Shown: positions 39,500 to 54,117 of the stretch, piece by piece | How positions within the stretch are numbered: the stretch's first letter is position 1 | How the letters are laid out: every line of letters starts with the position of its first letter | Sequence record: SRR20825010_3076 | DNA: 62,781 nt | Direction: 5' to 3' (one strand) | Notes under the pieces: generated by a model | What the model was told of the DNA's origin: nothing | The model's database searches: none | Seen by the model: the letters and a program-made list of their open reading frames with translations, nothing else | Translations under genes and position numbers: made by a program

Positions 39500-39624
39500 T
39501 CTTTCACTGCCGGATGTGGAGCCGGGCGGGGCTCGTTGGTAAACTGAGCGCCATTCTAGCCTACTGGGCTTTTAACGTCTTTACCCGCAAACCCATGGTT
39601 TGCCGGGCCGAGGGTAACGATCTT

Positions 39625-40359
39625 TTGACATTGGCAACGGGCACTCATTCAGATTCCGGAACGTCATTGCTGCTGGTCTCACCGAGGTATGAGGGGGTGA
39701 CCGCGTCCTGGTTTTCCCCTGACTTCTGGGAGGGAAGGGCGAAACCGGTCTCCTCTGGTGGACGTGGCGGTGCCTGGTTTGTTGATATGGAGCCGCCGGG
39801 TATGGTGCTTCGTCATTACAGACGTGGCGGCATGATGGCCCGTTTCGCGGAAAAGACGTATTTGTTTACCGGCTTTGAACAGACCCGGTCTGTGGCCGAG
39901 TTCCGGTTGCTGGGCCAACTTCGCTCGCTGGGTCTGCCGGTACCGGAAGCCGTTGCTGCCATTGCCTGGAAATACCGGCTTTTCTGGTATCGGGCCGCTA
40001 TACTGGTAGAGCGGATACCGAATTCCGTCACGTTTTCCGACAGCGATCGCTTAAGCGATGAGTCTCTGTGGGCTCAGTTGGGGCAGGTCATCCGACGCTT
40101 TCACGACAACGGCCTCAATCACGTTGATTTGAACTGCGATAACATACTCGTGACGGGGGATCAGCTTTATCTGATCGACTTTGACCGTTGCAAACTGGTC
40201 CCAGAGAGCGAAAATGAAACAGATTCAGCATGGAAGCAGCGAAACCTGGAACGACTTCAGCGTTCTGTCAGGAAGCGGTGCCCAGGTTTATCCCCATCCC
40301 AGCGGGAAAACCTCTGGCAGCATCTGCTCCAAGCCTATCATCGCCAGCCCTCCCACTAA
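39625..40359 (+). CDS. kdkA: 3-deoxy-D-manno-octulosonic acid (Kdo) kinase
   Basis: GGRG.AWF, LRHYRRGG, GLPVP, H.DLN..NIL, IDFD, NL.RL.RS; start uncertain (TTG 39625 with upstream GAGG chosen; the ORF is open from 39514). Confidence 0.88.
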   Translation: MTLATGTHSDSGTSLLLVSPRYEGVTASWFSPDFWEGRAKPVSSGGRGGAWFVDMEPPGMVLRHYRRGGMMARFAEKTYLFTGFEQTRSVAEFRLLGQLRSLGLPVPEAVAAIAWKYRLFWYRAAILVERIPNSVTFSDSDRLSDESLWAQLGQVIRRFHDNGLNHVDLNCDNILVTGDQLYLIDFDRCKLVPESENETDSAWKQRNLERLQRSVRKRCPGLSPSQRENLWQHLLQAYHRQPSH

Positions 40360-40386
40360 ATTTCCAATCAGGCCCGATTCACGTTA

Positions 40387-41076
40387 ATGACCACCGTCAA
40401 ACTCGAAGAAGAGCTTCACTCCAATACCCGTAGAACCCGGATTACCTATCGGGGGCTGGTGGATGGCCGGGTGGCGGCGATCAAGTGTTACCGTAAGCCG
40501 CTTTTCGGGTTGGTTCATTGGATTCGTGCGTTGCGCCGTGGCAAGAAAATTCGGCGCGTGGGTGGGCCGGTACCGCCAACTGTTTATGCTGGTTGGATCG
40601 CCGAATTGACATGTTTTGGTTTCGCTACCGAGTTCCTCACGGGTTACCGCCCAATGAGAGAGCTGTTGAGAGAGACGGACGACCGCGACGAGCAGATTCA
40701 GCTTTTAAAGCGCTTGGGAGAGTGCATTGCCGATCTTCATAAAAAGGGAATCGAACAACCTGATTGTAATCTGACTAACTTTTTAATGGGCGCTGATGGC
40801 CAGATCAGGATGGTAGACGAAGACGATGTGCGTGTCCATCGTGCGGGGTTGCGTGAGGGCGTGGCTTTGTCGAATCTTTCGAATCTAGGAGCAAGGCTGC
40901 CGCCGGGGGAGTTGCCTCTCGTGTTGCACCAGGCATACGTTGAGGCCTTCGGTGATGCCGGTAGCGGAATAAGGCTTGATGTTAAAGAGTTTGAGAACCA
41001 GGTATCTGAGAAGAAACAGCAATTACGCAAAAAGCGAACTGCGAGAGATGCAGCGCCCGACCGAGAGTACGATTGA
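40387..41076 (+). CDS. LPS kinase-like protein (Kdo/WaaP/InaA fold)
   Basis: AAIKCY, FATEFL, LH..GI.QPDCNLTNF, MVDED. Confidence 0.7.
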   Translation: MTTVKLEEELHSNTRRTRITYRGLVDGRVAAIKCYRKPLFGLVHWIRALRRGKKIRRVGGPVPPTVYAGWIAELTCFGFATEFLTGYRPMRELLRETDDRDEQIQLLKRLGECIADLHKKGIEQPDCNLTNFLMGADGQIRMVDEDDVRVHRAGLREGVALSNLSNLGARLPPGELPLVLHQAYVEAFGDAGSGIRLDVKEFENQVSEKKQQLRKKRTARDAAPDREYD

Positions 41077-44151: not shown

Positions 44152-44817
44152 TTAGTTGGCTGTTTCATTCGGTGGCGCATTTCGATAATCAGGAAGTGCA
44201 GGTAGACCCTCGATATGAACAACCCCAAGCTGCGCAGGAATGCGGTCAATGCCTGCCGCGATCGCCATCGCTAAACGATGATTGCCTTTCCTGCCGAAGT
44301 AGGGCTTGCCGTCTGGACCAATGTTGACGAGTATCCCTCCCTCTTCCCGGAAGTTCCCAGGGATCAGCTCATCTCTGGGGCTCAGGCGCCCTGCTTGTCG
44401 CACGCTTTCGTATAGGGCATCAAGCTGCCGGTACCGGAGTTTAACGTCTTCAAGTGTCCTGAGGCGGTCTACCTTTCCGTGCTTCCGTATCTGATCCATC
44501 ATTGCGTCGTAAATGCCCGTTTCTTCCCACGACAACCCGCCCCGCCAGTGGGCTACACACGCCTTTATGGCGACGGTTTGATCGACGCGCCCCAGCCCCC
44601 CGGTGGGCCAGGAACGGATGATTTGTCCGCTTTGTTTTGAGCTTCCCGCCTTGACGGCAAATTCAAGCTCGGAAATCGGCACCCACAGTTGTTCGGCAAA
44701 CCTCGGCGCGTCTTCCCCATATAATGCCTTGTTCTGTCGATCCGTTTGCCACGCTCGGAGGCGGCTGTTCCAGTTCCTTCGTAGCTGCTCGAATCTGGAT
44801 TTTTCGGTAATACCCAT
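44152..44817 (-). CDS. Hypothetical protein with ParB/Srx-like motif
   Basis: C-terminal ILVNIGPDG...KGNHRLAMAIAAGIDRIP resembles the ParB/sulfiredoxin GxHR..A...G...IP motif. Confidence 0.6.
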   Translation of the reverse strand: MGITEKSRFEQLRRNWNSRLRAWQTDRQNKALYGEDAPRFAEQLWVPISELEFAVKAGSSKQSGQIIRSWPTGGLGRVDQTVAIKACVAHWRGGLSWEETGIYDAMMDQIRKHGKVDRLRTLEDVKLRYRQLDALYESVRQAGRLSPRDELIPGNFREEGGILVNIGPDGKPYFGRKGNHRLAMAIAAGIDRIPAQLGVVHIEGLPALPDYRNAPPNETAN

Positions 44818-44922: not shown

Positions 44923-47900
44923 ATGGGAACAACGGAGCGAGCACACCAGACACGCCTCATCATCCTCGGCGCTGGCAAGCCGTTCAGCGGCGAACAGCAT
45001 AGTGTGCTCCGGGGCACAACCGGTCGCAGGCGGGTACTGGACTGGGTATTGCACTCCATGCGCGCAGTAGAGCCCGACGTTCATTTCGTGGGCGGATACC
45101 AGCTGGATGAAATTGCCGAGCGTTATCCCGAGCTTCACTATTCGGTGAACCCTCATTGGCAATCCACCGGTGCGGCGGCGTCGTTGCTGGAAGCGCCACT
45201 GAATGATCGCGTCGTTCACTACGTGTCCTATTCCGACGTGCTGTTTCGGGATTCCGCGGTGCAATCTTTATCCTCCAGTGAGGCGGATATAGCCGTTTTG
45301 GTGGACAGCAATTGGCGTCACCGGTTTGAGGGGCGCTCTGAAGAGGATTTACAGCGATGTGAAAAAGTGAACGTGCACGGCGGCCGGATCACCCGTTTGG
45401 GGCGGGATATCCTTCCCGAACTGGCCGATGCCGAATTCGTTGGTCTGGTTCGGCTGCAGCCCAAGGTTGCGGGTTTTCTGGCGGGGCAGTCGGATTTTCC
45501 GGAAGCCATACGCAAGGGCAGCCTCACCCAGCTTCTTGAGCTGTTGCGGGTTCGTGGGTTCAGTGTGGCTGCGGTGGATGTGGCCGGTGGATGGGCAGAA
45601 CTGAACGAGCCGAACGATCTCAGTCGGTTTATCCTGGGCACCAAGGCGCAGACGCTCCATCGTTTGCAGGGCGTGGTTACGAGAAGTCGTATTGAAGACC
45701 AGGTCAGCTTTACGGTTGCCGAATGGCAGGACTTGGACACAGAAGTACTCGCCCGGATCGGGGCGCGCCTATCGGAAACGGAAAAACTGGTTGTCCGCAG
45801 CAGTGCCTTGTCAGAGGACGGGTTCGGGGTATCCAACGCTGGCGCTTACACCAGTGTTCTCAATGTCAGTCGCCAGAGTGAAGGCGAGCTTAGAGCCGCC
45901 ATTGAGAAGGTCATTGCCTCCTATCCCGATGGCCACCCCGACAACCAGGTTCTGGTGCAGCCGATGCTGGAACAGGTGATTGCCAGTGGTGTGGCGTTCA
46001 CCAAAACCCTGTCCTCGGGGGCTCCGTATTATGTCGTGAATTACGACGATACTACGAATAGCACCGAGTCCATCACCAGCGGTGCCAGCCGGGATCACAA
46101 AACCCTCTTTGTTCATCGGGATGCTCCGGAGAAGCTGGTACGGGTGCCGGAGAACCTGGCGGGACTGATGCCCGCGCTGAGGGAAGTCGAGGACCTGTTG
46201 GATTTCGATTCTCTCGATATGGAATTCGCTATCACTGAGGGCGGCCTGATCCATATCCTTCAGGTGCGCCCGATTGCGGTTCAGCACGAGCTCACTCAGA
46301 GTGATGCGGCAGAGAGCTTGCTGACGAACGCCGTGGATCGATTTCGGCAGTGGCAGGCTCCAGCGCCATTTGTTGTCGGCAAGCGTGCCTGTTTCGGTGT
46401 GATGCCGGACTGGAACCCGGCTGAAATCATCGGCACCCGGCCGGGACGACTGGCATCCAGCCTGTATCGCTATCTGATCATGGACGACGTGTGGGCAGCC
46501 CAGAGAGCGGAATACGGTTATCGGGACGTTCGCCCCCAGCCGTTGCTCAGGATGTTTGCCGGGCACCCTTACGTGGATATTCGCGCCAGCTTCAACTCTT
46601 TCATTCCGCAATCCCTGGATGACGGCTTGGCAGGGCGGCTGGTGGACTTCTACATGGAGTGGTTACGTCGCCACCCGCATCTACACGACAAAGTTGAGTT
46701 TGATGTGGTGCCTACCTGCTACGCGCTGGATTTTGAGCGCTGGCGGGAACGTTTGATCCACGAGGGTGGTTTTAATGCCGATGAGGCAGATCGGCTTGGC
46801 GTGGGATTGAAAACCATCACTGCCTGCGCCATCGCTCGAACCGACGCGGATCTGCAAGTAATTGACCGCTTCGAAGAGCGGCTGGCGTGTTTCCGGAACA
46901 CTGATGCCGCCAGTCTGGACGATGCACTGTCGCTGCTTGAAGAGTGTCGGCGATACGGAACCCTGGCGTTTGCCCATCTTGCCCGCAGTGCCTTTGTTGC
47001 GATCACATTGCTTCGGTCGGCCGTCGAAAAAGGTGTGTTGTCCCAGGGCGCCATGGATGCGTTCCTCAACTCTATCCGCACGGTTTCCCACCGGTTTACC
47101 GACGATGCTGCGAAGGTGGCTCGTCAAGAATTGTCCATGGCCGCCTTCACCCAACAATATCGGCACTTGCGGCCAGGTACCTACGACATAACCTCGCCCT
47201 GTTATGGCGATAACCCTGAGCATTTCCTGGTTCCGGTGATTGAGCGTTCAGCGTCGGAGTTGCACGCCGACTCGGGTTCCCATATCGCTCTGGACGCGTG
47301 GGAAAATGAGAGGCAGACGTTCGCGCAGGCGGTTTCAGATGCCGGTTTGCCCGGTGACATTGAGCAGCTTGAGCGTTTTATGCGTAATGCCATCGAGGGC
47401 CGTGAGTACGCCAAGTTTGTGTTTACCCGGCATCTTTCTCTGGCCCTGAATTGCCTGGCGGGTTACGGAGAGCGTCATGGGGTAACGCGGGAGCAGATGG
47501 CGTGTATTTCCGTTGAAGCCCTGTCCGCGTTGAGGTCAGGAACCGTGGCGGTGGCCGATGAGGCCTCCTGGCTGGCAGACCAGGCTACCGAAGGTTATGA
47601 GGCCAGCCGGGCAGCGGCTATGGTTGAATTACCCCCCTTGCTGCTGTCAGAAAGTGACTTTTACGCCTTCCTGTACACTGATAGCCACGCGAATTTCGTG
47701 GGTGCCGGGAAGATCTCCGCCGAGTGCGTCGATCTGCAAAAACGAGCCACTGACGAGCGGAGTAACCTGTCCGGCAAAATTGCCATGATTCCCCAGGCCG
47801 ACCCCGGTTATGACTGGCTGTTTGGCCATGGCATTGCCGGGTTGATTACCATGTATGGCGGTGCCAATTCCCACATGGCCATACGGGCCGCAGAGTTTGG

Positions 47901-48006
47901 ACTACCTGCCGCCATTGGCGTAGGCGAGGGGAAGTACGAGGCATTGGCGAGGGCAACCGTGTTGGAACTGGACCCCGTCAACAAGCGAATTGAGGTCATC
48001 CGTTAA
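44923..48006 (+). CDS. L-glutamine kinase-like (Cj1418-type, PEP-utilising fold) fused to an N-terminal nucleotidyltransferase-like domain
   Basis: ATP-grasp VVRSSA.SED...NAGAY.S, VLVQPM, DMEFA...LQVRP; central FGVMPDWNPAEIIG; phosphohistidine domain ADPGYDWLF...GGANSHMAIRAAE; N-terminal ~230 aa with IILGAG, YSDVLF, EFVGL, W.E. Confidence 0.8.
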   Translation: MGTTERAHQTRLIILGAGKPFSGEQHSVLRGTTGRRRVLDWVLHSMRAVEPDVHFVGGYQLDEIAERYPELHYSVNPHWQSTGAAASLLEAPLNDRVVHYVSYSDVLFRDSAVQSLSSSEADIAVLVDSNWRHRFEGRSEEDLQRCEKVNVHGGRITRLGRDILPELADAEFVGLVRLQPKVAGFLAGQSDFPEAIRKGSLTQLLELLRVRGFSVAAVDVAGGWAELNEPNDLSRFILGTKAQTLHRLQGVVTRSRIEDQVSFTVAEWQDLDTEVLARIGARLSETEKLVVRSSALSEDGFGVSNAGAYTSVLNVSRQSEGELRAAIEKVIASYPDGHPDNQVLVQPMLEQVIASGVAFTKTLSSGAPYYVVNYDDTTNSTESITSGASRDHKTLFVHRDAPEKLVRVPENLAGLMPALREVEDLLDFDSLDMEFAITEGGLIHILQVRPIAVQHELTQSDAAESLLTNAVDRFRQWQAPAPFVVGKRACFGVMPDWNPAEIIGTRPGRLASSLYRYLIMDDVWAAQRAEYGYRDVRPQPLLRMFAGHPYVDIRASFNSFIPQSLDDGLAGRLVDFYMEWLRRHPHLHDKVEFDVVPTCYALDFERWRERLIHEGGFNADEADRLGVGLKTITACAIARTDADLQVIDRFEERLACFRNTDAASLDDALSLLEECRRYGTLAFAHLARSAFVAITLLRSAVEKGVLSQGAMDAFLNSIRTVSHRFTDDAAKVARQELSMAAFTQQYRHLRPGTYDITSPCYGDNPEHFLVPVIERSASELHADSGSHIALDAWENERQTFAQAVSDAGLPGDIEQLERFMRNAIEGREYAKFVFTRHLSLALNCLAGYGERHGVTREQMACISVEALSALRSGTVAVADEASWLADQATEGYEASRAAAMVELPPLLLSESDFYAFLYTDSHANFVGAGKISAECVDLQKRATDERSNLSGKIAMIPQADPGYDWLFGHGIAGLITMYGGANSHMAIRAAEFGLPAAIGVGEGKYEALARATVLELDPVNKRIEVIR

Positions 48007-48007
48007 G

Positions 48008-48655
48008 ATGCGCATTGGAGTCAGTCAGCGCGTGGAAGTGGTTGCGTCTTATGGTGAGCACCGGGATTGCCTGGATCAGCAATGGTTCCGGTTTCTTGAG
48101 GCACTGGGGTTCATGCCCGTGCCCATTCCCAACTCGCTGTCCAATCTCAACGAATGGCTGGCATCGACGGGAATTGAGGGGCTGATCCTGTCGGGTGGCA
48201 ATGATCTCACTCACCTGCCTGATGCCATCAACACGTCGGCAGAGCGAGATGAGACGGAACGAACCCTGCTTTCGCTTGCACGCGAGCGGGGGTGGCCAGT
48301 TATCGGAGTCTGTCGGGGACTGCAGATGATGAACGTCTGGCTGGGCGGGCAGCTTACCCCGGTCTCCGGTCATACCGCCGTGCGACACGCGGTGACACCA
48401 ACTGAACAGACAAATAGCTGGTTTCGCCCCTACCAGGACGTCAACAGTTTCCATAACTGGGGAATTTCCCCGGAGGGTCTGGTGGCGGAACTCATCCCCC
48501 AGTTGCTGAGCCCGGAAGGCGATATCGAGGCGTATGTGCATCGTAGCCTGCCTTGGGCTGGCATCATGTGGCACCCGGAGCGAGAGGCGCCGTTCACCGA
48601 GCGCGACAAACAACTTTTCAACTGTATTTTCAGAGGTACCCCATGCAAACACTGA
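48008..48655 (+). CDS. Class I glutamine amidotransferase / peptidase C26, gamma-glutamyl-CDP-amidate hydrolase-like (Cj1417-type)
   Basis: IGVSQRV...EHRDCLDQQW, LILSGGND, GVCRG (catalytic Cys), VNSFH, WHPER (His-Glu). Confidence 0.8.
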   Translation: MRIGVSQRVEVVASYGEHRDCLDQQWFRFLEALGFMPVPIPNSLSNLNEWLASTGIEGLILSGGNDLTHLPDAINTSAERDETERTLLSLARERGWPVIGVCRGLQMMNVWLGGQLTPVSGHTAVRHAVTPTEQTNSWFRPYQDVNSFHNWGISPEGLVAELIPQLLSPEGDIEAYVHRSLPWAGIMWHPEREAPFTERDKQLFNCIFRGTPCKH

Positions 48656-49425
48656 TACTGGCCGCAGGGCAGGGCACCCGACTTCGCCCCTACACCAACG
48701 ACCGCCCCAAATGCATGGTGGCGCTGGCGGGCAAGCCTCTGCTTCATCGTCAGATGGCGGCGATGGCAGCTTGCGGAGTGAGCAATGGCATTACCGTCAT
48801 CGGCGGCTATCGGTCGGATGACCTGGACACTCTAGGCGGTGATCTCGTCCTCAATCCCGAGTACGCAACCACCAACATGGTCCGCACGCTCTTTTGCGCG
48901 CGCGAGAAGATGAAGCCCGGCGAGGATCTGCTGATCAGTTACGGGGATATCGTCTATGAGCCTACGGTTCTGAAAATCGTTCTGGACTGCGATGCGCCGG
49001 TTTGTCTGGCTGCGGACCGTAAGTGGAAGCGCCTGTGGCAATTAAGAATGGAGGAGCCGTTGGATGACGCGGAAACCTTCGTTATGAACGAATCCGGTTT
49101 TGTGACTGAGCTTGGCAAGAAGCCCAGTGATTACAGCCAGGTCCAGGCTCAATACATGGGGCTGATCAAGATCCGGGGCGATCAGGTGCAGGCGTTTCTC
49201 GATGTTTTCGATAGACTGGACCGTAGCGCCACCTACGATGGCAAGGACTTCGATAACATGTACATGACGAGCTTTATCCAGCACCTGATTGACACCGGCT
49301 GGCCGGTGAAGGCCTGCCTGGTGGACAACGGTTGGCTGGAAGTGGATACCGCGGATGAGCTGGAAGCCTATTCCTCGATGGCGGAAAAAGGTGAGTTGGC
49401 ATCCTACTGCGCGTTATCGAACTGA
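48643..49425 (+). CDS. LicC-family cytidylyltransferase, CTP:phosphoglutamine cytidylyltransferase-like (Cj1416-type)
   Basis: LILAAGQGTRL.P.T.DRPKCMV, NPEY..TNMV.TL, YGDIVY, QYMGL, WLEVDT. Confidence 0.82.
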   Translation: MQTLILAAGQGTRLRPYTNDRPKCMVALAGKPLLHRQMAAMAACGVSNGITVIGGYRSDDLDTLGGDLVLNPEYATTNMVRTLFCAREKMKPGEDLLISYGDIVYEPTVLKIVLDCDAPVCLAADRKWKRLWQLRMEEPLDDAETFVMNESGFVTELGKKPSDYSQVQAQYMGLIKIRGDQVQAFLDVFDRLDRSATYDGKDFDNMYMTSFIQHLIDTGWPVKACLVDNGWLEVDTADELEAYSSMAEKGELASYCALSN

Positions 49426-50336
49426 GTTCTCAGGTCATATAGTCGGTCGACAAGGGGCTGGTGATCCTTGAGCATGCCGCGGATTTGGTCCGTGTCTCCG
49501 ATGCCGACATTGCGGATGGAGTAGGAAGGATTGAACGGCGCTGACGGCAGTTGCGCTTCCGGGAAATCCAGGAAGTCACAGACTCTCCGGGCTTCCGTTT
49601 TGTGGTCTTTCACGAAGCGTTCAAAGCTCACTGCAAGCATATAACTTTCGCCCAACTGCGCCTGAAGCGCCATCAGGCTTTCCATTTTTGCGGCGATGCC
49701 TTTGAGCACATAGGCAATGTCGTCGTTCTCGCTATCATTGAACGCGGGGTCGGATTTACGCTTGCCGATCTTGCCCTGGCGGACGACTTCGGCAAACTGG
49801 TCCACTGGATCTCGGTGAACCACGATCAGTTTGAAGGGGGTAAAGACAGCGGGCCAGGTCCCTTCGTGTTTGCCGACCCAGATCGGCTGGTTCCAGACGA
49901 TGGCCTTTTCCCTAGCAGCGTACGCCTGGCCGACGGCGTGCATCCAATCGTTCCATATCCGGCTATCCGAGGGCGCACCGCCTTTGGCTAAATGTTTCCG
50001 ATAGCGGCCAAGGTATTCAAGCTTCAACTGGTTGTGTCTCACCTGCTCCTTTGGAGCAAGCTTGGCCTGGTCTGCGCCTCGCGCTTTTTTAAGCTGTGCT
50101 GCAGGCAGTTTGCCCATGGCGGTTTCGAACCACATCATCCTGGCAAGCCATTTTGCCTTGAAGGGTGAGTCCGCCTCCAGAAGGCTGCCGATTCGTCCAC
50201 TCCGTTTGAAGTCGGTAAATTCACCCCGGGGCACGACGCAGTCCGGGTGTCCCTTGAGGTAATCCACTACAGCACCGGAACCGGACCAATAAATGCCCGC
50301 TACCAGAATATTGAGAGGTTGGGCGTGCTCAGTCAT
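49404..50336 (-). CDS. Sulfotransferase-fold (P-loop-like) protein
   Basis: N-terminal VAGIYWSGSGAV.D.L loop, IVVHRDP.D, V.FE.FV.D......VCDFL. Confidence 0.65.
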   Translation of the reverse strand: MTEHAQPLNILVAGIYWSGSGAVVDYLKGHPDCVVPRGEFTDFKRSGRIGSLLEADSPFKAKWLARMMWFETAMGKLPAAQLKKARGADQAKLAPKEQVRHNQLKLEYLGRYRKHLAKGGAPSDSRIWNDWMHAVGQAYAAREKAIVWNQPIWVGKHEGTWPAVFTPFKLIVVHRDPVDQFAEVVRQGKIGKRKSDPAFNDSENDDIAYVLKGIAAKMESLMALQAQLGESYMLAVSFERFVKDHKTEARRVCDFLDFPEAQLPSAPFNPSYSIRNVGIGDTDQIRGMLKDHQPLVDRLYDLRTQFDNAQ

Positions 50337-51510
50337 GTTGGCTTTGCTTTTCCGGGGATTCGAGAAAGTCGCTCACCACCACCCGGCTGCGGAAAGGCGC
50401 AAGCCACTCCGGTTTCACGGTGACCGGTAGGCGGTTAACCACGGTTGCGAGCCCGCTTGCCAGACCATCCACGGTGCGTGGCGTCAGGAAATCCTCCAAT
50501 TCGCCACGGAACACATCCCGTACGCCACCGCGGCTCTCTACAGCCATGATCGGCGTGTTGCAGGCCAGGGCCTCGGTCAATACGATGCCCAGGCCCTCAT
50601 ATTCTGAGGCCAGCACAAACAGTTCCGCCTGCTTCATCCAGGGGTAGGGGTTTCTGCGTTTGCCCGCGAAGAAGACGCGGTCAGCGATGCCTAGGGCCTT
50701 CGCTTTCTCCTCCAAATCGTTTTTCAACGGACCCTCGCCTACAATGACCAGCTTGTGAGCGATTCCTGATTGCTTGTAGGCTTCCAGCAGCAAGGCGTGG
50801 CCTTTCTGAGGCACGAGCCGAGCGACATTGAGGATATAGGGCTCCGCTGGAATGTCCGGGTCGGCCTCTTGCGCCAACGCGTTAATCTGCTCCACCGGGC
50901 AGGGGTTGGTGATCACCCGCTGGCTTTTCGGTTCAATCTCCCCCTTTTTGAACGCCTCCTGAGCGGAGTCCAGCACACCAGAGGAAACGCAAGCCAGGTG
51001 TCGGTTATTGAAGACCAGTTGCCATTCCAGCTTTTTCTGCCACAGAGGGCGATCATAATGAATAACGTTTTCGAGCACGTACACATTGCGGTCATCCCGG
51101 AACGACCAGAAATACTTGAAGGTACCCAGGCCTCGGAAAACAATGCGGTCGAAACGCCCGAAGCGCTTTTCCAGGCCGCGAATGTGTCTCTTCAGCAGCC
51201 ACCCGCTTAGCCAGCCAACCCACATAAAGTGGGATTTCGGCAACAGTACACCCAGTAGAAGGCGGGATAACAGGAAAACTGGAATACCGATAACCGATTT
51301 CATCAACGCCTGGAACTGATCGAAGTGATGCAGGTGAACGGCAGAATTGGCAGGGCTGAGATCATTGGGGCGATTGCGGCAGGACAGCAGGTGACTCTCG
51401 TGGCCCTCGTCCGCAAAGGCATCCGCCAGGTTAACGGCCACCCGTTCCATGCCGCCCATTTTCAGGCTGTGGATCACAACCAGGGTTCTCATGCTTCCTT
51501 GCTCGGTCAT
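50329..51510 (-). CDS. Glycosyltransferase family 4
   Basis: GGMERV, VARL..QKG, NPYPWM, S.YEGLG.VL.EALA. Confidence 0.92.
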   Translation of the reverse strand: MTEQGSMRTLVVIHSLKMGGMERVAVNLADAFADEGHESHLLSCRNRPNDLSPANSAVHLHHFDQFQALMKSVIGIPVFLLSRLLLGVLLPKSHFMWVGWLSGWLLKRHIRGLEKRFGRFDRIVFRGLGTFKYFWSFRDDRNVYVLENVIHYDRPLWQKKLEWQLVFNNRHLACVSSGVLDSAQEAFKKGEIEPKSQRVITNPCPVEQINALAQEADPDIPAEPYILNVARLVPQKGHALLLEAYKQSGIAHKLVIVGEGPLKNDLEEKAKALGIADRVFFAGKRRNPYPWMKQAELFVLASEYEGLGIVLTEALACNTPIMAVESRGGVRDVFRGELEDFLTPRTVDGLASGLATVVNRLPVTVKPEWLAPFRSRVVVSDFLESPEKQSQHD

Positions 51511-52337
51511 GCAGTGCGGCTCTTCTCAATGCCGTTTTCGGCCCAGAAGGTGCGGTTGTCCTTAACGGCCTTGCGGATAGCCCGGTTCTTTGCCCAGATT
51601 TCCGGCTTGGAGTAACCGCGGGCATGGTCCAGATGCAGGCACACGGTGCTGTAGCGAATCTGCCGGGATTTGTGACCAAAGTTCCAGAGGCGCTCGCCAA
51701 GTTCGCGGTCCAGGCCACCGTATTGCATGTCTTCGTTGAAGCCATTAACGGCAATCAGGTCTTTGGTCCAGGTGGAGCTGTTCATGCCATTCCAACTGGC
51801 GGCTGCCGGCGTGATGGCATTCAGGAATGTCTTCTTCAGGGATGAGCTGGACAGCTTCCAGAGCTTGTGGTTCTTCGGTTGGCCCTTACTGACCAGCCAC
51901 TGGGGGTCAAAGATGACACCGCTGCGGATATCGTCGTCGGAAATCGCTTCTGAAACCGGCATGGTGAGTTTGATGTATCCGCCGGACAGGAAAACTCCTG
52001 GTTCGGCCAGCCGTTGATGGGTGGCGATGAAGTCCGGTTCCGGGATGCAGTCGCCGTCCGTGAAGATCAGATAGTCGCAGTCGGTTTCCCGGATGGCCTT
52101 GTTGAGGATCTGGCACTTGCGAAAGCCGTCGTCCTCGTGCCACACGTGGTCGATCTGCAGGATACCGCGCTCGCGGAACCGGTCGATGAGGTCGCGGGTC
52201 TCGTTGGTTGACCCGTCATCAGCAATGATCACCCGAAAGTCCGGCTGGCTCTGGTTTTCATAGCCCGTCAGAACCTTGCTCAGCCATAGTGGGGAATTGT
52301 AGGTAGTGATGACTACGCCAATGCGTTCTGGTGACAT
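51507..52337 (-). CDS. Glycosyltransferase family 2
   Basis: VITTYN, IADDGS, WHED.GFRK, FTDGDC, VNGFNE...GG.D. Confidence 0.92.
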   Translation of the reverse strand: MSPERIGVVITTYNSPLWLSKVLTGYENQSQPDFRVIIADDGSTNETRDLIDRFRERGILQIDHVWHEDDGFRKCQILNKAIRETDCDYLIFTDGDCIPEPDFIATHQRLAEPGVFLSGGYIKLTMPVSEAISDDDIRSGVIFDPQWLVSKGQPKNHKLWKLSSSSLKKTFLNAITPAAASWNGMNSSTWTKDLIAVNGFNEDMQYGGLDRELGERLWNFGHKSRQIRYSTVCLHLDHARGYSKPEIWAKNRAIRKAVKDNRTFWAENGIEKSRTA

Positions 52338-52448
52338 GGATCCGGCCCGGCCTTTATTCAGGTAAAACAAGACAGTCTTGGAGACTGCTTCGGTACGCGG
52401 ATTATACAGTTTTAGTACTCCGCGGGCACCGGCTGTGTGAGGGGGGAA

Positions 52449-53448: not shown

Positions 53449-54117
53449 TTACAGCCTCTGTGAGGCTTCCCAGCTGGTGCTTCGGTCGCCGGTTTCCCAG
53501 CCAATTCTCAGGTAAAAGCGCCGGATACGGCGGCTAATGTATCGCTTTCGCCAAGCGGAGAGGGTGGCCAATTTGTCGGGGATGGTGGGGGCGCCGAGCC
53601 CGTCAACCAGAAACAGCTCCGGTTGTCCGCCCCTGTCGGCGATCACCAAGTTGTGGGGCAGCAGGTTCCGGGTGAGGATTCCGGTTTCGAGTAACCAGTT
53701 GCAGAAGCGGTCTGCAGCGTCCCGAATCGGTTGATCAAACCCCCGGTGTTTCAGGTAGTGTTCGAGCGTTTCGCCCGGTAGGCCGTGGTCATCGAAGAGG
53801 AGCTCACTCATGTTTGCCAGGCCGAGCGAGGTTTCCACCGCGCCATGAAATTGCGGCAGGTGCGCCCAGACCAGTTCGTCGTGGCCATCGTTGATCAGCG
53901 CCCGGATGGCTTGCTGTTGATGCGCCCGGAGTTCCTGGCGGTTGTCATCAATCCTCGCTCTGCCGAGCATTTTCTTTGGCCAGGACTGGCGCTGGAAACG
54001 CACTTCGATGTTTTCAGGCCGCAGTACTTTGAGACACAATGCCGGATCATCCGGATGCCGGTAGCAGTGTCGGTTGTAGCCAGAGGCGAATGGCTCAATG
54101 CCTGACAGGTCAATCAT
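53449..54117 (-). CDS. YrbL-family kinase-like protein
   Basis: PFASG..R.CY.HP....CLKV, G.VET.LG, LVDGLG. Confidence 0.78.
   Translation of the reverse strand: MIDLSGIEPFASGYNRHCYRHPDDPALCLKVLRPENIEVRFQRQSWPKKMLGRARIDDNRQELRAHQQQAIRALINDGHDELVWAHLPQFHGAVETSLGLANMSELLFDDHGLPGETLEHYLKHRGFDQPIRDAADRFCNWLLETGILTRNLLPHNLVIADRGGQPELFLVDGLGAPTIPDKLATLSAWRKRYISRRIRRFYLRIGWETGDRSTSWEASQRL

What the first reader, a model, noticed from the sequence alone, without database searches (positions are those of the whole stretch)
49404..50336. Sulfotransferase-fold protein with rewired PAPS motifs: candidate new phosphoramidate transferase
Seen: the gene overlaps the end of the cytidylyltransferase convergently by 22 bp and is the last gene of a GT2-GT4 run. 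Its 5'-phosphosulfate loop reads GIYWSGSG, with Trp where sulfotransferases have Lys/Arg (xxK/RSGT). Its 3'-phosphate motif reads RDPVDQFAE, with Glu where RxPxDxxxS has Ser. Inference: an acidic residue there would disfavour a 3'-phosphorylated donor such as PAPS. That fits a donor without a 3'-phosphate, CDP-amidate, and would explain why no Cj1415-like kinase is present. An alternative is that it is itself a nucleotide kinase standing in for Cj1415.
Basis: inference. Interest (0 to 1): 0.75.

Follow-up and report, generated by a model that had tools for sequence, protein, structure and literature searches.

The report
Sulfotransferase-fold candidate phosphoramidate transferase
A Marinobacter lipopolysaccharide-core gene has the shape of a sulfate-transferring enzyme but lacks that enzyme's key donor-binding residues, and it probably attaches a phosphorus-nitrogen group to the cell-surface sugar instead.

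Summary
ORF 49404-50336 (-) encodes a 310-aa protein with a confident sulfotransferase fold. Trp replaces the 5'-phosphosulfate-loop Lys, and Glu replaces the 3'-phosphate-motif Ser. It ends a translationally coupled GT2-GT4 operon. It overlaps by 22 bp, tail to tail, the last gene of a Cj1418/Cj1417/Cj1416-like phosphoramidate-donor module.

The altered motifs mark a whole rare subfamily: 111 of 140 aligned representatives are aromatic at the Lys site and 121 of 146 are acidic at the Ser site.

Of 191 Marinobacter species genomes, 19 carry the gene and 17 the glutamine kinase; 14 carry both. No Cj1415/APS-kinase gene lies in the locus, and two 99%-complete carrier genomes have none at all.

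In two Marinobacter genomes the same core-locus slot holds a 50%-identical allele next to a cytidylyltransferase-PEP mutase phosphonate cassette. Distant relatives repeatedly sit beside cytidylyltransferases.

Best reading (about 0.5): a transferase that moves the terminal P group from a CMP-linked donor, here CDP-amidate without a 3'-phosphate, onto the LPS core. This is untested biochemically.

Caveats: most distant homologs lack the trio, and LicD co-occurs in a marine clade. Earlier notes of this scan record sulfotransferase-fold partners of phosphoramidate cassettes in other genomes.

The parts
49404..50336 (-). Sulfotransferase-fold protein P0001 (310 aa), candidate phosphoramidyl transferase
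   Evidence: Pfam PF13469, E 1.8e-11. AF2 pLDDT 92.7. Foldseek: all listed matches with E<=1e-3 are PAPS sulfotransferases or the SULT-fold retinol dehydratase. VIA-align: TPST Z 17.6.
50274..50297 (-). Altered 5'-phosphosulfate-loop equivalent, GIYWSGSG (residues 14-21). W17 (50286-50288) replaces the Lys.
49788..49817 (-). Altered 3'-phosphate-motif equivalent, HRDPVDQFAE (residues 174-183). R175 is kept. E183 (49788-49790) replaces the Ser.
50329..51510 (-). GT4 glycosyltransferase. Its stop overlaps the start of P0001.
   Evidence: Pfam Glycos_transf_1, 3.2e-29. Kept upstream of the ST gene in all Marinobacter loci examined.
51507..52370 (-). GT2 glycosyltransferase, first gene of the GT2-GT4-ST run
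   Evidence: Pfam Glycos_transf_2, 5.2e-18
48643..49425 (+). NTP_transf_3 nucleotidyltransferase (Cj1416-like). Starts MQTLILAAGQGTR. Convergent with P0001 with a 22-bp overlap.
   Evidence: Pfam PF12804, 2.3e-12; start codon read
47990..48655 (+). Class-I glutamine amidotransferase-like hydrolase (Cj1417-like)
   Evidence: Pfam Peptidase_C26, 3.3e-22. The best NCBIfam hit is NF045546, gamma-glutamyl-CDP-amidate hydrolase, at 120.5 bits, below its cut-off of 250.
44923..48006 (+). 1027-aa fusion. Residues 1-231 are a divergent nucleotidyltransferase-like domain. Residues 232-1026 are a Cj1418-type PEP-utilising kinase.
   Evidence: NF004508, 888.5 bits against a cut-off of 501. PPDK_N and PEP-utilizers. 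The N-terminal part is 20-25% identical to the free-standing NTP transferase by tblastn.
44152..44817 (-). 221-aa conserved protein P0056 with no family. A neighbour of the module; its role is unknown.
   Evidence: No Pfam or NCBIfam hit. Homolog present in Marinobacter core loci both with and without the trio.

Best explanation
P0001 is a cytoplasmic sulfotransferase-fold transferase that no longer uses PAPS.

Proposed steps:
1. The three convergent neighbours make cytidine diphosphoramidate (CDP-amidate) from glutamine, ATP and CTP, as their Campylobacter counterparts do.
2. P0001 binds this CMP-linked donor in the place where sulfotransferases bind PAPS.
3. Glu39 acts as general base on a hydroxyl of the core sugar built by the co-translated GT2 and GT4.
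4. The terminal phosphoramidyl group is transferred and CMP leaves.
5. The product is an unmethylated phosphoramide substituent on the LPS core.

The aromatic residue at the Lys site and the acidic residue at the Ser site adapt the pocket. The new donor is a pyrophosphate-type donor, perhaps Mg-bound, that lacks a 3'-phosphate.

Shown here: the fold, the motif changes, the gene linkage, and the absence of a Cj1415-type kinase.
Inferred: the donor, the acceptor, the chemistry, and the roles of W17, E39 and E183.
For: (1) Fold. Every listed Foldseek PDB match with E<=1e-3 is a PAPS sulfotransferase or the SULT-fold retinol dehydratase. VIA-align gives TPST Z 17.6/17.3/17.2, olefin-synthase ST 16.0 and 3-OST-5 13.2.

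(2) PAPS-binding signature lost family-wide. 111 of 140 representatives are aromatic at the Lys column, with K or R in 8. 121 of 146 are acidic at the Ser column, with Ser in 3. Four ordinary sulfotransferases encoded in the related loci all keep the Ser, 4 of 4.

(3) Linkage in Marinobacter.
- 13 of 16 fetched loci have ST, NTP transferase, hydrolase and kinase together. One more is cut by the contig end.
- In 191 species genomes, 19 have the ST, 17 have the kinase and 14 have both. In 13 of the 14 the two genes share a contig.

(4) Cassette swap. In G051 (L105) and in L017 the same core-locus slot holds a different allele. The flanking GT2 is 91-92% and the GT4 86% identical to the window's, but the ST is only 50-52% identical. 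It is followed by a cytidylyltransferase-PEP mutase fusion; in L105, Ppd and Fe-ADH follow as well, whereas the L017 contig ends after the fusion. G184 has a PEP-mutase hit directly downstream of its ST. Trio loci with a GT4 of similar identity (82-89%) have an ST of 77-82% identity. The ST allele therefore tracks the donor module.

(5) Wider family.
- The PntC-Ppm fusion lies next to the ST in 7 of 70 metagenome loci.
- Ppd or Fe-ADH fragments lie at contig edges in 3 more.
- Trio genes lie next to the ST in L074 and L084.
- Other cytidylyltransferase families (PF01467, PF12804, PF02348) lie nearby in L019, L026-29, L034, L045/46, L054, L089, L092, L020 and L104.
- In L026/27/29 the ST follows a HAD-family gene, a nucleotidyltransferase and a methyltransferase. 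The fta operon likewise ends in the phosphotransferase FtaD, which uses CDP-N-methylthreonine (bioRxiv 10.64898/2026.02.12.704994; abstract and passages). The domain families of FtaA and FtaB are my recollection.

(6) No 3'-kinase.
- No PF01583 gene lies in the window cluster.
- Carrier genomes G021 (99% complete, no hit) and G099 (99%, best hit 21 bits) have no APS kinase.
- The phosphonate-type carrier G051 (100% complete) has none either.
- A Marinobacter locus that does have a Cj1415-like kinase (L102) has an unfused glutamine kinase. Its nearby sulfotransferase-like protein keeps the canonical Ser.

(7) Catalytic base. E39, nearly invariant in A2, aligns with the Glu of 'GAEPH' in 3-OST-3. 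That this Glu is the catalytic base is my recollection.

(8) Chemistry exists in nature. Unmethylated phosphoramide is known on LPS cores of Xanthomonas campestris (PMC8042644, passage) and Shewanella MR-4 (PMC3210612, passage).
Against: - No biochemical or genetic test exists, and I found no LOS structure of a Marinobacter.
- R175, the Arg that binds the 3'-phosphate in sulfotransferases (recalled), is invariant in the family.
- 11 of the 14 Marinobacter genomes with both genes do carry a strong free-standing APS kinase elsewhere. It could phosphorylate CDP-amidate.
- Most distant homologs lack the trio: 68 of 70 metagenome loci.
- Several context types show no cytidylyltransferase within about 4-5 kb: L024, L032, L039, L041/L048-type, L065, L071 and L103.
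- In one marine clade a LicD gene, a known type of CDP-donor phosphotransferase, sits next to the ST-like gene (L040, L042, L049, L054, L084, L092, L093). There LicD may be the transferase and the ST-like protein may do something else.
- Genomes of one genus are kin, so the co-occurrence counts overstate independence.
Confidence: 0.5

Rival explanations
1. It is a phosphoramidate transferase that uses the PAPS-like donor 3'-phospho-CDP-amidate, as proposed for Campylobacter. The cell's housekeeping APS kinase (CysC-like) would supply the 3'-phosphorylation.
For: - R175 of the 3'-phosphate motif is invariant.
- 11 of 14 Marinobacter genomes with both genes have a 234-239-bit APS kinase elsewhere.
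- In Campylobacter, Cj1415-Cj1418 together make CDP-phosphoramidate 3'-phosphate, called the likely donor (PMC11800397, passages).
Against: - G021 and G099 (both 99% complete) carry the ST plus trio with no APS kinase above 22 bits.
- The Ser of the motif is acidic in 121 of 146 relatives. A carboxylate next to a 3'-phosphate is unfavourable (inference).
- The APS kinase is never in the locus. G001, which lacks the ST, has it too.
Confidence: 0.13
2. It is an ordinary PAPS-dependent sulfotransferase that sulfates the LPS core. Its place beside the phosphoramidate genes is a coincidence of a variable glycan locus.
For: - It matches Pfam Sulfotransfer_3 above the cut-off.
- All top structural matches are PAPS enzymes.
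- Databases name relatives 'sulfotransferase'.
Against: - The loop Lys/Arg is absent and the Ser is replaced by an acidic residue in most of the subfamily. Four neighbouring ordinary sulfotransferases keep the Ser.
- Five of the 19 ST-carrying Marinobacter genomes have no APS kinase above 35 bits. Three of them are 99-100% complete.
- The ST allele type tracks the donor cassette.
Confidence: 0.08
3. It acts on the CMP-linked donor or on the decorated glycan in some other way than as the primary transferase. Examples are a second-site transferase, an editing hydrolase, or an accessory to another transferase such as LicD or a TagF-like enzyme.
For: - LicD sits beside the ST-like gene in the marine clade (L040, L042, L049, L054, L084, L092, L093).
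- Other phosphoramidate cassettes in Marinobacter and relatives use a TagF-like gene and no ST (L100, L101, L108).
- Closely related marine ST-like proteins sit beside different donor modules.
Against: - The window cluster has no LicD or TagF-like gene among the 20 ORFs scanned. P0001 is therefore the only candidate transferase beside the donor genes.
- A Glu aligned with the sulfotransferase general base is conserved.
Confidence: 0.2
4. It is a nucleotide kinase that stands in for Cj1415 and phosphorylates CDP-amidate.
For: Sulfotransferases and P-loop nucleotide kinases share a fold. dTMP kinase and other kinases appear at Z 7-9, and dCK at Foldseek E about 3e-3.
Against: - There is no Walker-A Lys: the loop reads GIYWSGSG.
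- There is no PF01583 or other kinase family hit.
- Sulfotransferases score far higher, Z 13-17.6.
- A separate transferase would still be needed, and none is in the locus.
Confidence: 0.03

Closest known systems
PAPS-dependent sulfotransferases (tyrosylprotein sulfotransferases, CurM/olefin-synthase ST domains, heparan sulfate 3-O-sulfotransferases; Pfam Sulfotransfer_3/_1)
   Same: The fold is the same (Z 13-17.6). It matches Pfam PF13469. It keeps the Arg-Asp-Pro core of the 3'-phosphate motif and a Glu aligned with the 3-OST general base.
   Different: The loop Lys/Arg is replaced by Trp/Tyr/Phe. The motif Ser is replaced by Glu/Asp, with an added invariant Gln (RDPxDQ). It occurs in genomes without an APS kinase. 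It is wired to cytidylyltransferase and donor cassettes rather than to sulfate activation genes.
Campylobacter jejuni O-methyl phosphoramidate pathway (Cj1415-Cj1418 donor synthesis; Cj1421/Cj1422 transferases)
   Same: Homologs of the glutamine kinase (NF004508, 888 bits), the hydrolase and the cytidylyltransferase lie next to the gene.
   Different: - There is no Cj1415-type 3'-kinase and no methyltransferase in the locus.
- The kinase carries an extra N-terminal nucleotidyltransferase-like domain.
- The target is the LPS core, not a capsule.
- P0001 matches no family other than PF13469, so it is not a Cj1421/Cj1422 relative by sequence.
- In Campylobacter the transferases are assigned from knockouts (PMC11800397 and PMC3907429, passages).
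CDP/CMP-donor phosphotransferases: LicD, TagF-like (Glyphos_transf), FtaD of Clostridioides difficile
   Same: The proposed chemistry is the same: transfer of the terminal P-X group with CMP as leaving group. Gene position is the same: TagF-like genes take the place of the ST in other phosphoramidate cassettes (L100, L101, L108). The ST follows a HAD-family gene, a nucleotidyltransferase and a methyltransferase in L026/27/29, at the end of the set as FtaD ends the fta operon.
   Different: The fold and the sequence family are unrelated. FtaD activity is shown in vitro (bioRxiv 10.64898/2026.02.12.704994; abstract). P0001 activity is not shown.
Phosphonyl tailoring (Pnt) pathway: PntC cytidylyltransferase-PEP mutase fusions making CMP-activated phosphonates
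   Same: Alleles and relatives of P0001 sit directly beside PntC-Ppm, Ppd and Fe-ADH cassettes (L017, L105, L025, L030, L040, L042, L049, L063, L070).
   Different: The window itself has the phosphoramidate module, not a phosphonate one. The paper names LicD-like phosphotransferases or glycosyltransferases as neighbours and calls the later steps enigmatic (PMC6697681; abstract and one passage). The word 'sulfotransferase' occurs 0 times in it.

Membership tests
PAPS-dependent sulfotransferases | Sulfotransferase fold | tested here: met
   AF2 pLDDT 92.7. Foldseek: every listed match with E<=1e-3 is a PAPS sulfotransferase or the SULT-fold retinol dehydratase. VIA-align Z up to 17.6.
PAPS-dependent sulfotransferases | Pfam sulfotransferase model above the gathering score | tested here: met
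   PF13469, 45.2 bits against 27
PAPS-dependent sulfotransferases | Lys/Arg in the 5'-phosphosulfate-binding loop (motif recalled: PKxGTT / xRSGxT) | tested here: not met
   W17 aligns with the Lys of 3-OST-3. In the family, K or R occurs in 8 of 140 and an aromatic residue in 111 of 140.
PAPS-dependent sulfotransferases | Ser of the 3'-phosphate-binding motif RxPxDxxxS (motif recalled) | tested here: not met
   E183 is at the Ser position. In the family, Ser occurs in 3 of 146 and E or D in 121 of 146.
PAPS-dependent sulfotransferases | Arg of the 3'-phosphate-binding motif | tested here: met
   R175 is invariant in A1 and A2
PAPS-dependent sulfotransferases | PAPS supply (APS kinase) in the carrier genome | tested here: inconclusive
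   Of 19 ST-carrying Marinobacter genomes, 14 have a strong PF01583 hit. Five have none above 35 bits: G021 99%, G099 99%, G051 100%, G024 96% and G096 83% complete. The window's own assembly is not held.
PAPS-dependent sulfotransferases | Sulfuryl transfer from PAPS | not testable with these tools
   Needs an enzyme assay
Campylobacter MeOPN transferases Cj1421/Cj1422 | Sequence membership in their family (earlier notes of this scan name the models PF11186/PF28160 and NF058596) | tested here: not met
   The Pfam and NCBIfam scans of P0001 at E<=0.01 returned only PF13469 and nothing, respectively. I did not verify that those accessions are in the copies searched.
APS kinase / Cj1415-type P-loop kinases | Walker-A GxxxxGK[ST] and a PF01583 match | tested here: not met
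   The loop is GIYWSGSG, without Lys. There is no PF01583 hit. The best kinase fold match is Z 9.1.
LicD / TagF-like CDP-donor phosphotransferases | PF04991 or PF04464 match | tested here: not met
   No such hit for P0001. The claim is 'may work like', not 'is a member'.

The most novel reading that the evidence does not exclude
The aromatic/acidic branch of the sulfotransferase fold is a general family of CMP-releasing 'P-X' transferases. It would install phosphoramidate, 2-hydroxyethyl- or 2-aminoethyl-phosphonate, and perhaps phospho-amino-acid groups on bacterial and archaeal surface glycans. That would supply the missing last enzyme of both kinase-free phosphoramidate decoration and phosphonoglycan biosynthesis.
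Probability: 0.3. Interest if true: 0.8.

Novelty: new variant of a known kind. Interest (0 to 1): 0.62.

Why it matters
Two transfer steps are still open in the papers I could read.
- For phosphoramidate, the transfer step onto sugars is assigned from knockouts in Campylobacter, and the donor is called 'likely' (PMC11800397, passages).
- For CMP-activated phosphonates, the steps after activation are called enigmatic (PMC6697681, abstract).

A small soluble sulfotransferase-fold enzyme from culturable, non-pathogenic Marinobacter would make both questions directly testable. It occurs in natural alleles paired with either donor cassette at the same LPS-core position.

It would also show how the PAPS pocket can be rebuilt for a cytidine pyrophosphate-type donor. 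And it would give a genetic basis for the unmethylated phosphoramide groups reported on the LPS cores of Xanthomonas and Shewanella.

Tried and rejected
- Diverse alignment A2. I repeated the scan with the narrower A3. That biases the 70 loci to relatives bearing RDPRDQ[ILF]A[DE].
- Genus-wide PEP_mutase (PF13714) search. It was uninformative as a tally: 183 of 191 genomes hit, with one similar about-165-bit hit in most genomes, which I take to be a housekeeping paralog. Only the hits adjacent to the ST in G051 and G184 were useful.
- Longer fused relatives (386-576 aa). They carry only TPR-like N-termini or nothing recognisable.
- ESM Atlas. It returned only 'sulfotransferase' clusters.
- Look-up of P0001 in the scan's earlier findings by sequence. 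Nothing was found.
- Profile search of PDB sequences. Only weak 3-OST-3 hits, E 1.2e-3.
- Inspecting the 3'-phosphate pocket in the model.
- Taylor & Raushel 2018 (PMC5938747). It is not held. What I say of Cj1415 rests on citing papers and recall.
- Class-wide sample. The kinase was in only 6 of 400 genomes, too few for a correlation between kinase presence and transferase type. L107 has both a TagF-like gene and an APS kinase, so 'TagF-like means kinase-free' is not a rule.
- Kinase reading of P0001. Rejected for the reasons given under the rivals.
Full report
**What is there**

The window is from a Marinobacter; the closest homologs and loci are all named Marinobacter. Its own assembly is not held.

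ORF 49404-50336 on the minus strand encodes a 310-aa protein, P0001.
- It is the last gene of a tightly coupled run: GT2 51507-52370, then GT4 50329-51510, then P0001.
- The overlaps in that run are 4 bp and 8 bp.
- Its 3' end overlaps by 22 bp the 3' end of a plus-strand nucleotidyltransferase gene.
- The surrounding 20 ORFs are an LPS inner/outer-core cluster. It holds WaaA, two lipid A acyltransferases, WaaP/Kdo-kinase-like proteins, an O-antigen-ligase-like protein, and GT2, GT4 and GT25 genes.

**The neighbouring donor module**

Three plus-strand genes converge on P0001.
- 44923-48006 encodes 1027 aa. Residues 232-1026 match NCBIfam NF004508 at 888.5 bits (cut-off 501) and carry PPDK_N and PEP-utilizers domains. 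NF004508 is labelled 'hypothetical protein'. That it is the Cj1418 glutamine-kinase family is my recollection, supported by the neighbours. It hit 0 of 14 control genomes.
- 47990-48655 is a Peptidase_C26/GATase protein. Its best NCBIfam match is gamma-glutamyl-CDP-amidate hydrolase, at 120.5 bits, below the cut-off of 250.
- 48643-49425 is an NTP_transf_3 protein beginning MQTLILAAGQGTR.

According to passages of PMC11800397, Cj1415-Cj1418 of Campylobacter jejuni make CDP-phosphoramidate 3'-phosphate from glutamine, ATP and CTP. Deletions of Cj1421 or Cj1422 lose the O-methyl phosphoramidate.

The window cluster has no APS-kinase-family (Cj1415-like) gene and no methyltransferase.

**The protein**

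Pfam gives Sulfotransfer_3 (E 1.8e-11). NCBIfam gives nothing.

An AlphaFold2 model built on a 50-sequence alignment has pLDDT 92.7 and pTM 0.91.
- All listed Foldseek matches to the PDB with E<=1e-3 are PAPS sulfotransferases or the SULT-fold retinol dehydratase. Deoxycytidine kinase follows at about 3e-3.
- The Foldseek-independent search gives tyrosylprotein sulfotransferases at Z 17.6, 17.3 and 17.2.
- It gives the olefin-synthase ST domain at 16.0, 3-OST-5 at 13.2 and NDST at 13.0.
- The best kinase, dTMP kinase, scores 9.1.

In a profile alignment to 3-OST-3:
- W17 takes the place of the loop Lys.
- E183 takes the place of the motif Ser.
- E39 takes the place of the Glu of 'GAEPH', which I recall to be the general base.

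**The signature belongs to a subfamily**

An exhaustive search found 184 representative clusters at E<=1e-3, 105 of them at E<=1e-10, in 1.84 billion proteins. This is a small family.

In a MAFFT alignment of P0001 with 147 of these representatives:
- The Lys column is W 53, Y 42, F 16, K 3, R 5, other 21, gap 8.
- The Ser column is E 67, D 54, Q 12, N 8, S 3, R 1, G 1, gap 2.
- RDPxDQ is almost invariant. R175 and D179 are invariant in A2.

As a small control, four ordinary sulfotransferase-family proteins encoded in the related loci all keep Ser at that position. Two have the loop Lys and two have His. A sulfotransferase-like protein in a Cj1415-containing Marinobacter locus also keeps the Ser.

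**Linkage in Marinobacter**

Of the 16 Marinobacter loci fetched from species genomes:
- 13 hold the ST, the NTP transferase, the hydrolase and the kinase in the window's arrangement.
- L007 holds the first three and then the contig ends.
- L009 has an ST truncated at residue 263 and no trio.
- L017 has a 52%-identical ST followed by a CTP_transf_like-PEP_mutase fusion.

Across 191 Marinobacter species genomes:
- The ST clade (profile A1, E<=1e-10) is in 19.
- The kinase is in 17.
- 14 have both. In 13 of these the two genes lie on the same contig within a few kb. In G096 they lie on separate short contigs.

These genomes are kin, so the counts are not independent events.

The five ST-only genomes are:
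- G024, with a truncated ST;
- G051 and G184, with a phosphonate cassette adjacent;
- G151 (L103), with a 45%-identical ST in the core locus and neither cassette in 18 kb;
- G178 (L104), with a distant 22%-identical ST beside HAD, CTP_transf_3 and an HMGL-like gene.

**A natural cassette swap**

L105 (G051) is the same core locus as the window.
- Upstream, GT2 is 92% and GT4 86% identical to the window's.
- WaaP-like and Kdo-kinase-like genes lie at the far end.
- The ST is only 50% identical.
- It is followed by CTP_transf_like-PEP_mutase, a TPP decarboxylase (Ppd-like) and an Fe-alcohol dehydrogenase.

In trio-type loci whose GT4 is 82-89% identical, the ST is 77-82% identical (L005, L006, L007, L016). 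The ST therefore belongs to the swapped block and diverges with the donor genes.

In a maximum-likelihood tree of 40 ST-like proteins:
- The 15 Marinobacter trio-linked proteins form one clade (support 100/99).
- The two phosphonate-linked proteins are its sister (98/92).
- G151 lies outside both.

**The wider family**

A metagenome scan with a sub-alignment (pattern RDPRDQ[ILF]A[DE]) gave 70 loci, 30 of them shorter than 5 kb. I combined Pfam scans of 190 neighbouring ORFs from 29 loci with a tblastn screen of all 70 loci using 19 queries.
- The PntC-Ppm fusion is next to the ST-like gene in L025, L030, L040, L042, L049, L063 and L070.
- Ppd or Fe-ADH pieces lie at contig edges in L050, L053 and L062.
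- Trio genes are next to the ST in L074 (hydrolase-NTP transferase-ST, contiguous) and L084.
- A HAD-family gene, NTP_transf_3 and (where Pfam-scanned) a methyltransferase precede it in L026-29. L092 has the HAD and NTP_transf_3 homologs by tblastn.
- A phosphonate ABC importer and an HTH-NTP_transf_3 protein precede it in L045/46.
- PF01467 or PF02348 cytidylyltransferases lie nearby in L019, L034, L054, L089, L020 and L104.

PEP mutase pathways are said to occur in about 5% of bacterial genomes (PMC8942020; abstract in a search listing). Repeated adjacency in separate branches of the tree is therefore unlikely to be chance.

C. difficile FtaD is a phosphotransferase that uses CDP-N-methylthreonine, and FtaC methylates CDP-threonine (bioRxiv 10.64898/2026.02.12.704994; abstract, section 12 and passages). 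In L026/27/29 the ST-like gene ends a similar gene set, as ftaD ends its operon. The domain families of FtaA and FtaB are my recollection.

**Results that cut the other way**
- Several context types show no cytidylyltransferase within about 4-5 kb. These are L024 and L032 (DegT-ST-flippase), L039 (LPS core), the repeated marine DegT-GMC-ST-methyltransferase-GT4 type, L065, L071 and L103.
- In the marine clade a LicD gene sits in the same block as the ST-like gene (L040, L042, L049, L054, L084, L092, L093). Closely related ST-like proteins there accompany different donor modules. LicD could be the transferase there.
- Other phosphoramidate cassettes use a TagF-like gene and no ST. These are L100 and L101 in Marinobacter and L108 in the class sample.
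- L107 has a TagF-like gene together with an APS kinase.
- G022 has a CysC-like kinase about 7 kb beyond the edge of L100.

**Is a 3'-phosphorylated donor needed?**

The nearest held genome, G001, has a CysC-like APS kinase but no ST.

Of the 14 genomes with ST plus kinase:
- 11 have a 234-239-bit free-standing APS kinase far from the locus.
- G021 (99% complete) has no hit.
- G099 (99%) has only 21 bits, in a 547-aa ORF.
- G096 (83%) has only 25 bits.

The handles G002-G006 appear, by identical coordinates, to be the same genomes again, so I do not count them twice.

G051, the phosphonate type (100% complete), also lacks one. Of five genomes with distant homologs, only one has a strong hit, but their completeness is unknown.

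This argues against both PAPS and a Cj1415-type step, at least in some carriers.

**Reading**

The simplest account of all this is as follows. P0001 binds a CMP-linked donor where sulfotransferases bind PAPS. It passes the terminal phosphoramidyl group to a hydroxyl of the core sugar made by the co-translated GT2 and GT4, releasing CMP. With no methyltransferase in the locus, the product would be an unmethylated phosphoramide.

Such groups have been described on the LPS core of Xanthomonas campestris (PMC8042644, passage). They are also described in a minor LPS variant of Shewanella MR-4 (PMC3210612, passage).

I put this at about 0.5. The rivals and their odds are listed separately.

**Novelty**

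Four searches of the paper library found no paper that describes a sulfotransferase-fold phosphoramidate or phosphonate transferase. In 'sulfotransferase' co-occurred with the phosphonate terms only in an unrelated snail proteomics paper. The library lacks most subscription journals, and supplements were not consulted.

Earlier notes of this scan record about 30 sulfotransferase-fold partners of phosphoramidate cassettes in other genomes, mostly read as users of the PAPS-like 3'-phosphorylated donor. They also record kinase-free cassettes paired with TagF-like or LicD genes. The pairing as such has therefore been seen before in this scan.

What this window adds:
- a kinase-free cassette paired with a sulfotransferase fold;
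- a family-wide loss of exactly the two PAPS-contact residues;
- the allele-for-cassette swap with a phosphonate module at one LPS-core position.

Noticed in passing
window 44923-45618 (residues 1-231 of the 1027-aa kinase); L100, L101, L102, L106-L109: The extra N-terminal nucleotidyltransferase-like domain on the glutamine kinase goes with the absence of a Cj1415-like kinase in the locus. All fused forms lack it: the window type, L100, L101 and L108. Unfused forms L102, L107 and L109 have an APS_kinase gene adjacent; unfused L106 has none. The domain has no Pfam hit. It starts LIILGAGKPFSG.
   Followed up: partly
window 44152-44817 (-): A 221-aa protein (P0056) has no Pfam or NCBIfam family. 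It is conserved at 34-58% identity in Marinobacter LPS-core loci, both with and without the phosphoramidate trio. It contains a GNHRL stretch that reminded me of ParB/sulfiredoxin-type motifs (recalled, untested).
   Followed up: partly
L102 (G050:C9:69000-88900): Another Marinobacter species has a Campylobacter-like full set beside flagellin genes and a Maf-type flagellin glycosyltransferase. The set is an APS_kinase-like gene, a methyltransferase, an unfused glutamine kinase, the hydrolase and the cytidylyltransferase. About 4 kb away lies a Sulfotransfer_1-like protein that keeps the RDPxxxxxS Ser. This suggests phosphoramidate decoration of a flagellin glycan.
   Followed up: partly
L100, L101, L107, L108: TagF-type phosphoramidate cassettes carry a Formyl_trans_N-like gene and a 128-187-aa protein without a family. 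In L100, L101 and L108 these lie between the hydrolase and the cytidylyltransferase; in L107 they lie just upstream of the kinase. Their role in the pathway is unknown.
   Followed up: no
L040, L042, L045, L046, L049, L054, L084, L092, L093: Marine metagenome contigs share a block LicD - ST-like - about-190-aa unknown - methyltransferase - GT4. Interchangeable donor modules precede it: PntC-Ppm/Ppd/Fe-ADH; a phosphonate ABC importer with an HTH-nucleotidyltransferase; HAD plus NTP_transf_3; PF01467 plus a methyltransferase; or phosphoramidate genes. The importer version hints at activation of scavenged phosphonate.
   Followed up: partly
L009 (Marinobacter excellens HL-55 contig) and G024: The ST gene is truncated after about residue 253-263 and the whole donor trio is missing. 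It looks as if one deletion removed the convergent gene ends and the module together.
   Followed up: no
L104 (G178) and L020: Distant ST-like genes sit beside an HMGL-like 538-aa protein, a CTP_transf_3 cytidylyltransferase and a HAD hydrolase inside dTDP-sugar or LPS loci. This looks like an unrecognised CMP-activated acid pathway.
   Followed up: no
window 53449-54117 (-) and 39514-41076 (+): The core cluster also encodes a YrbL-like protein (PhoP-network family, kinase-like) and two WaaP/Kdo-kinase-like proteins. Several phosphorylations of the core are therefore likely besides the one discussed.
   Followed up: no
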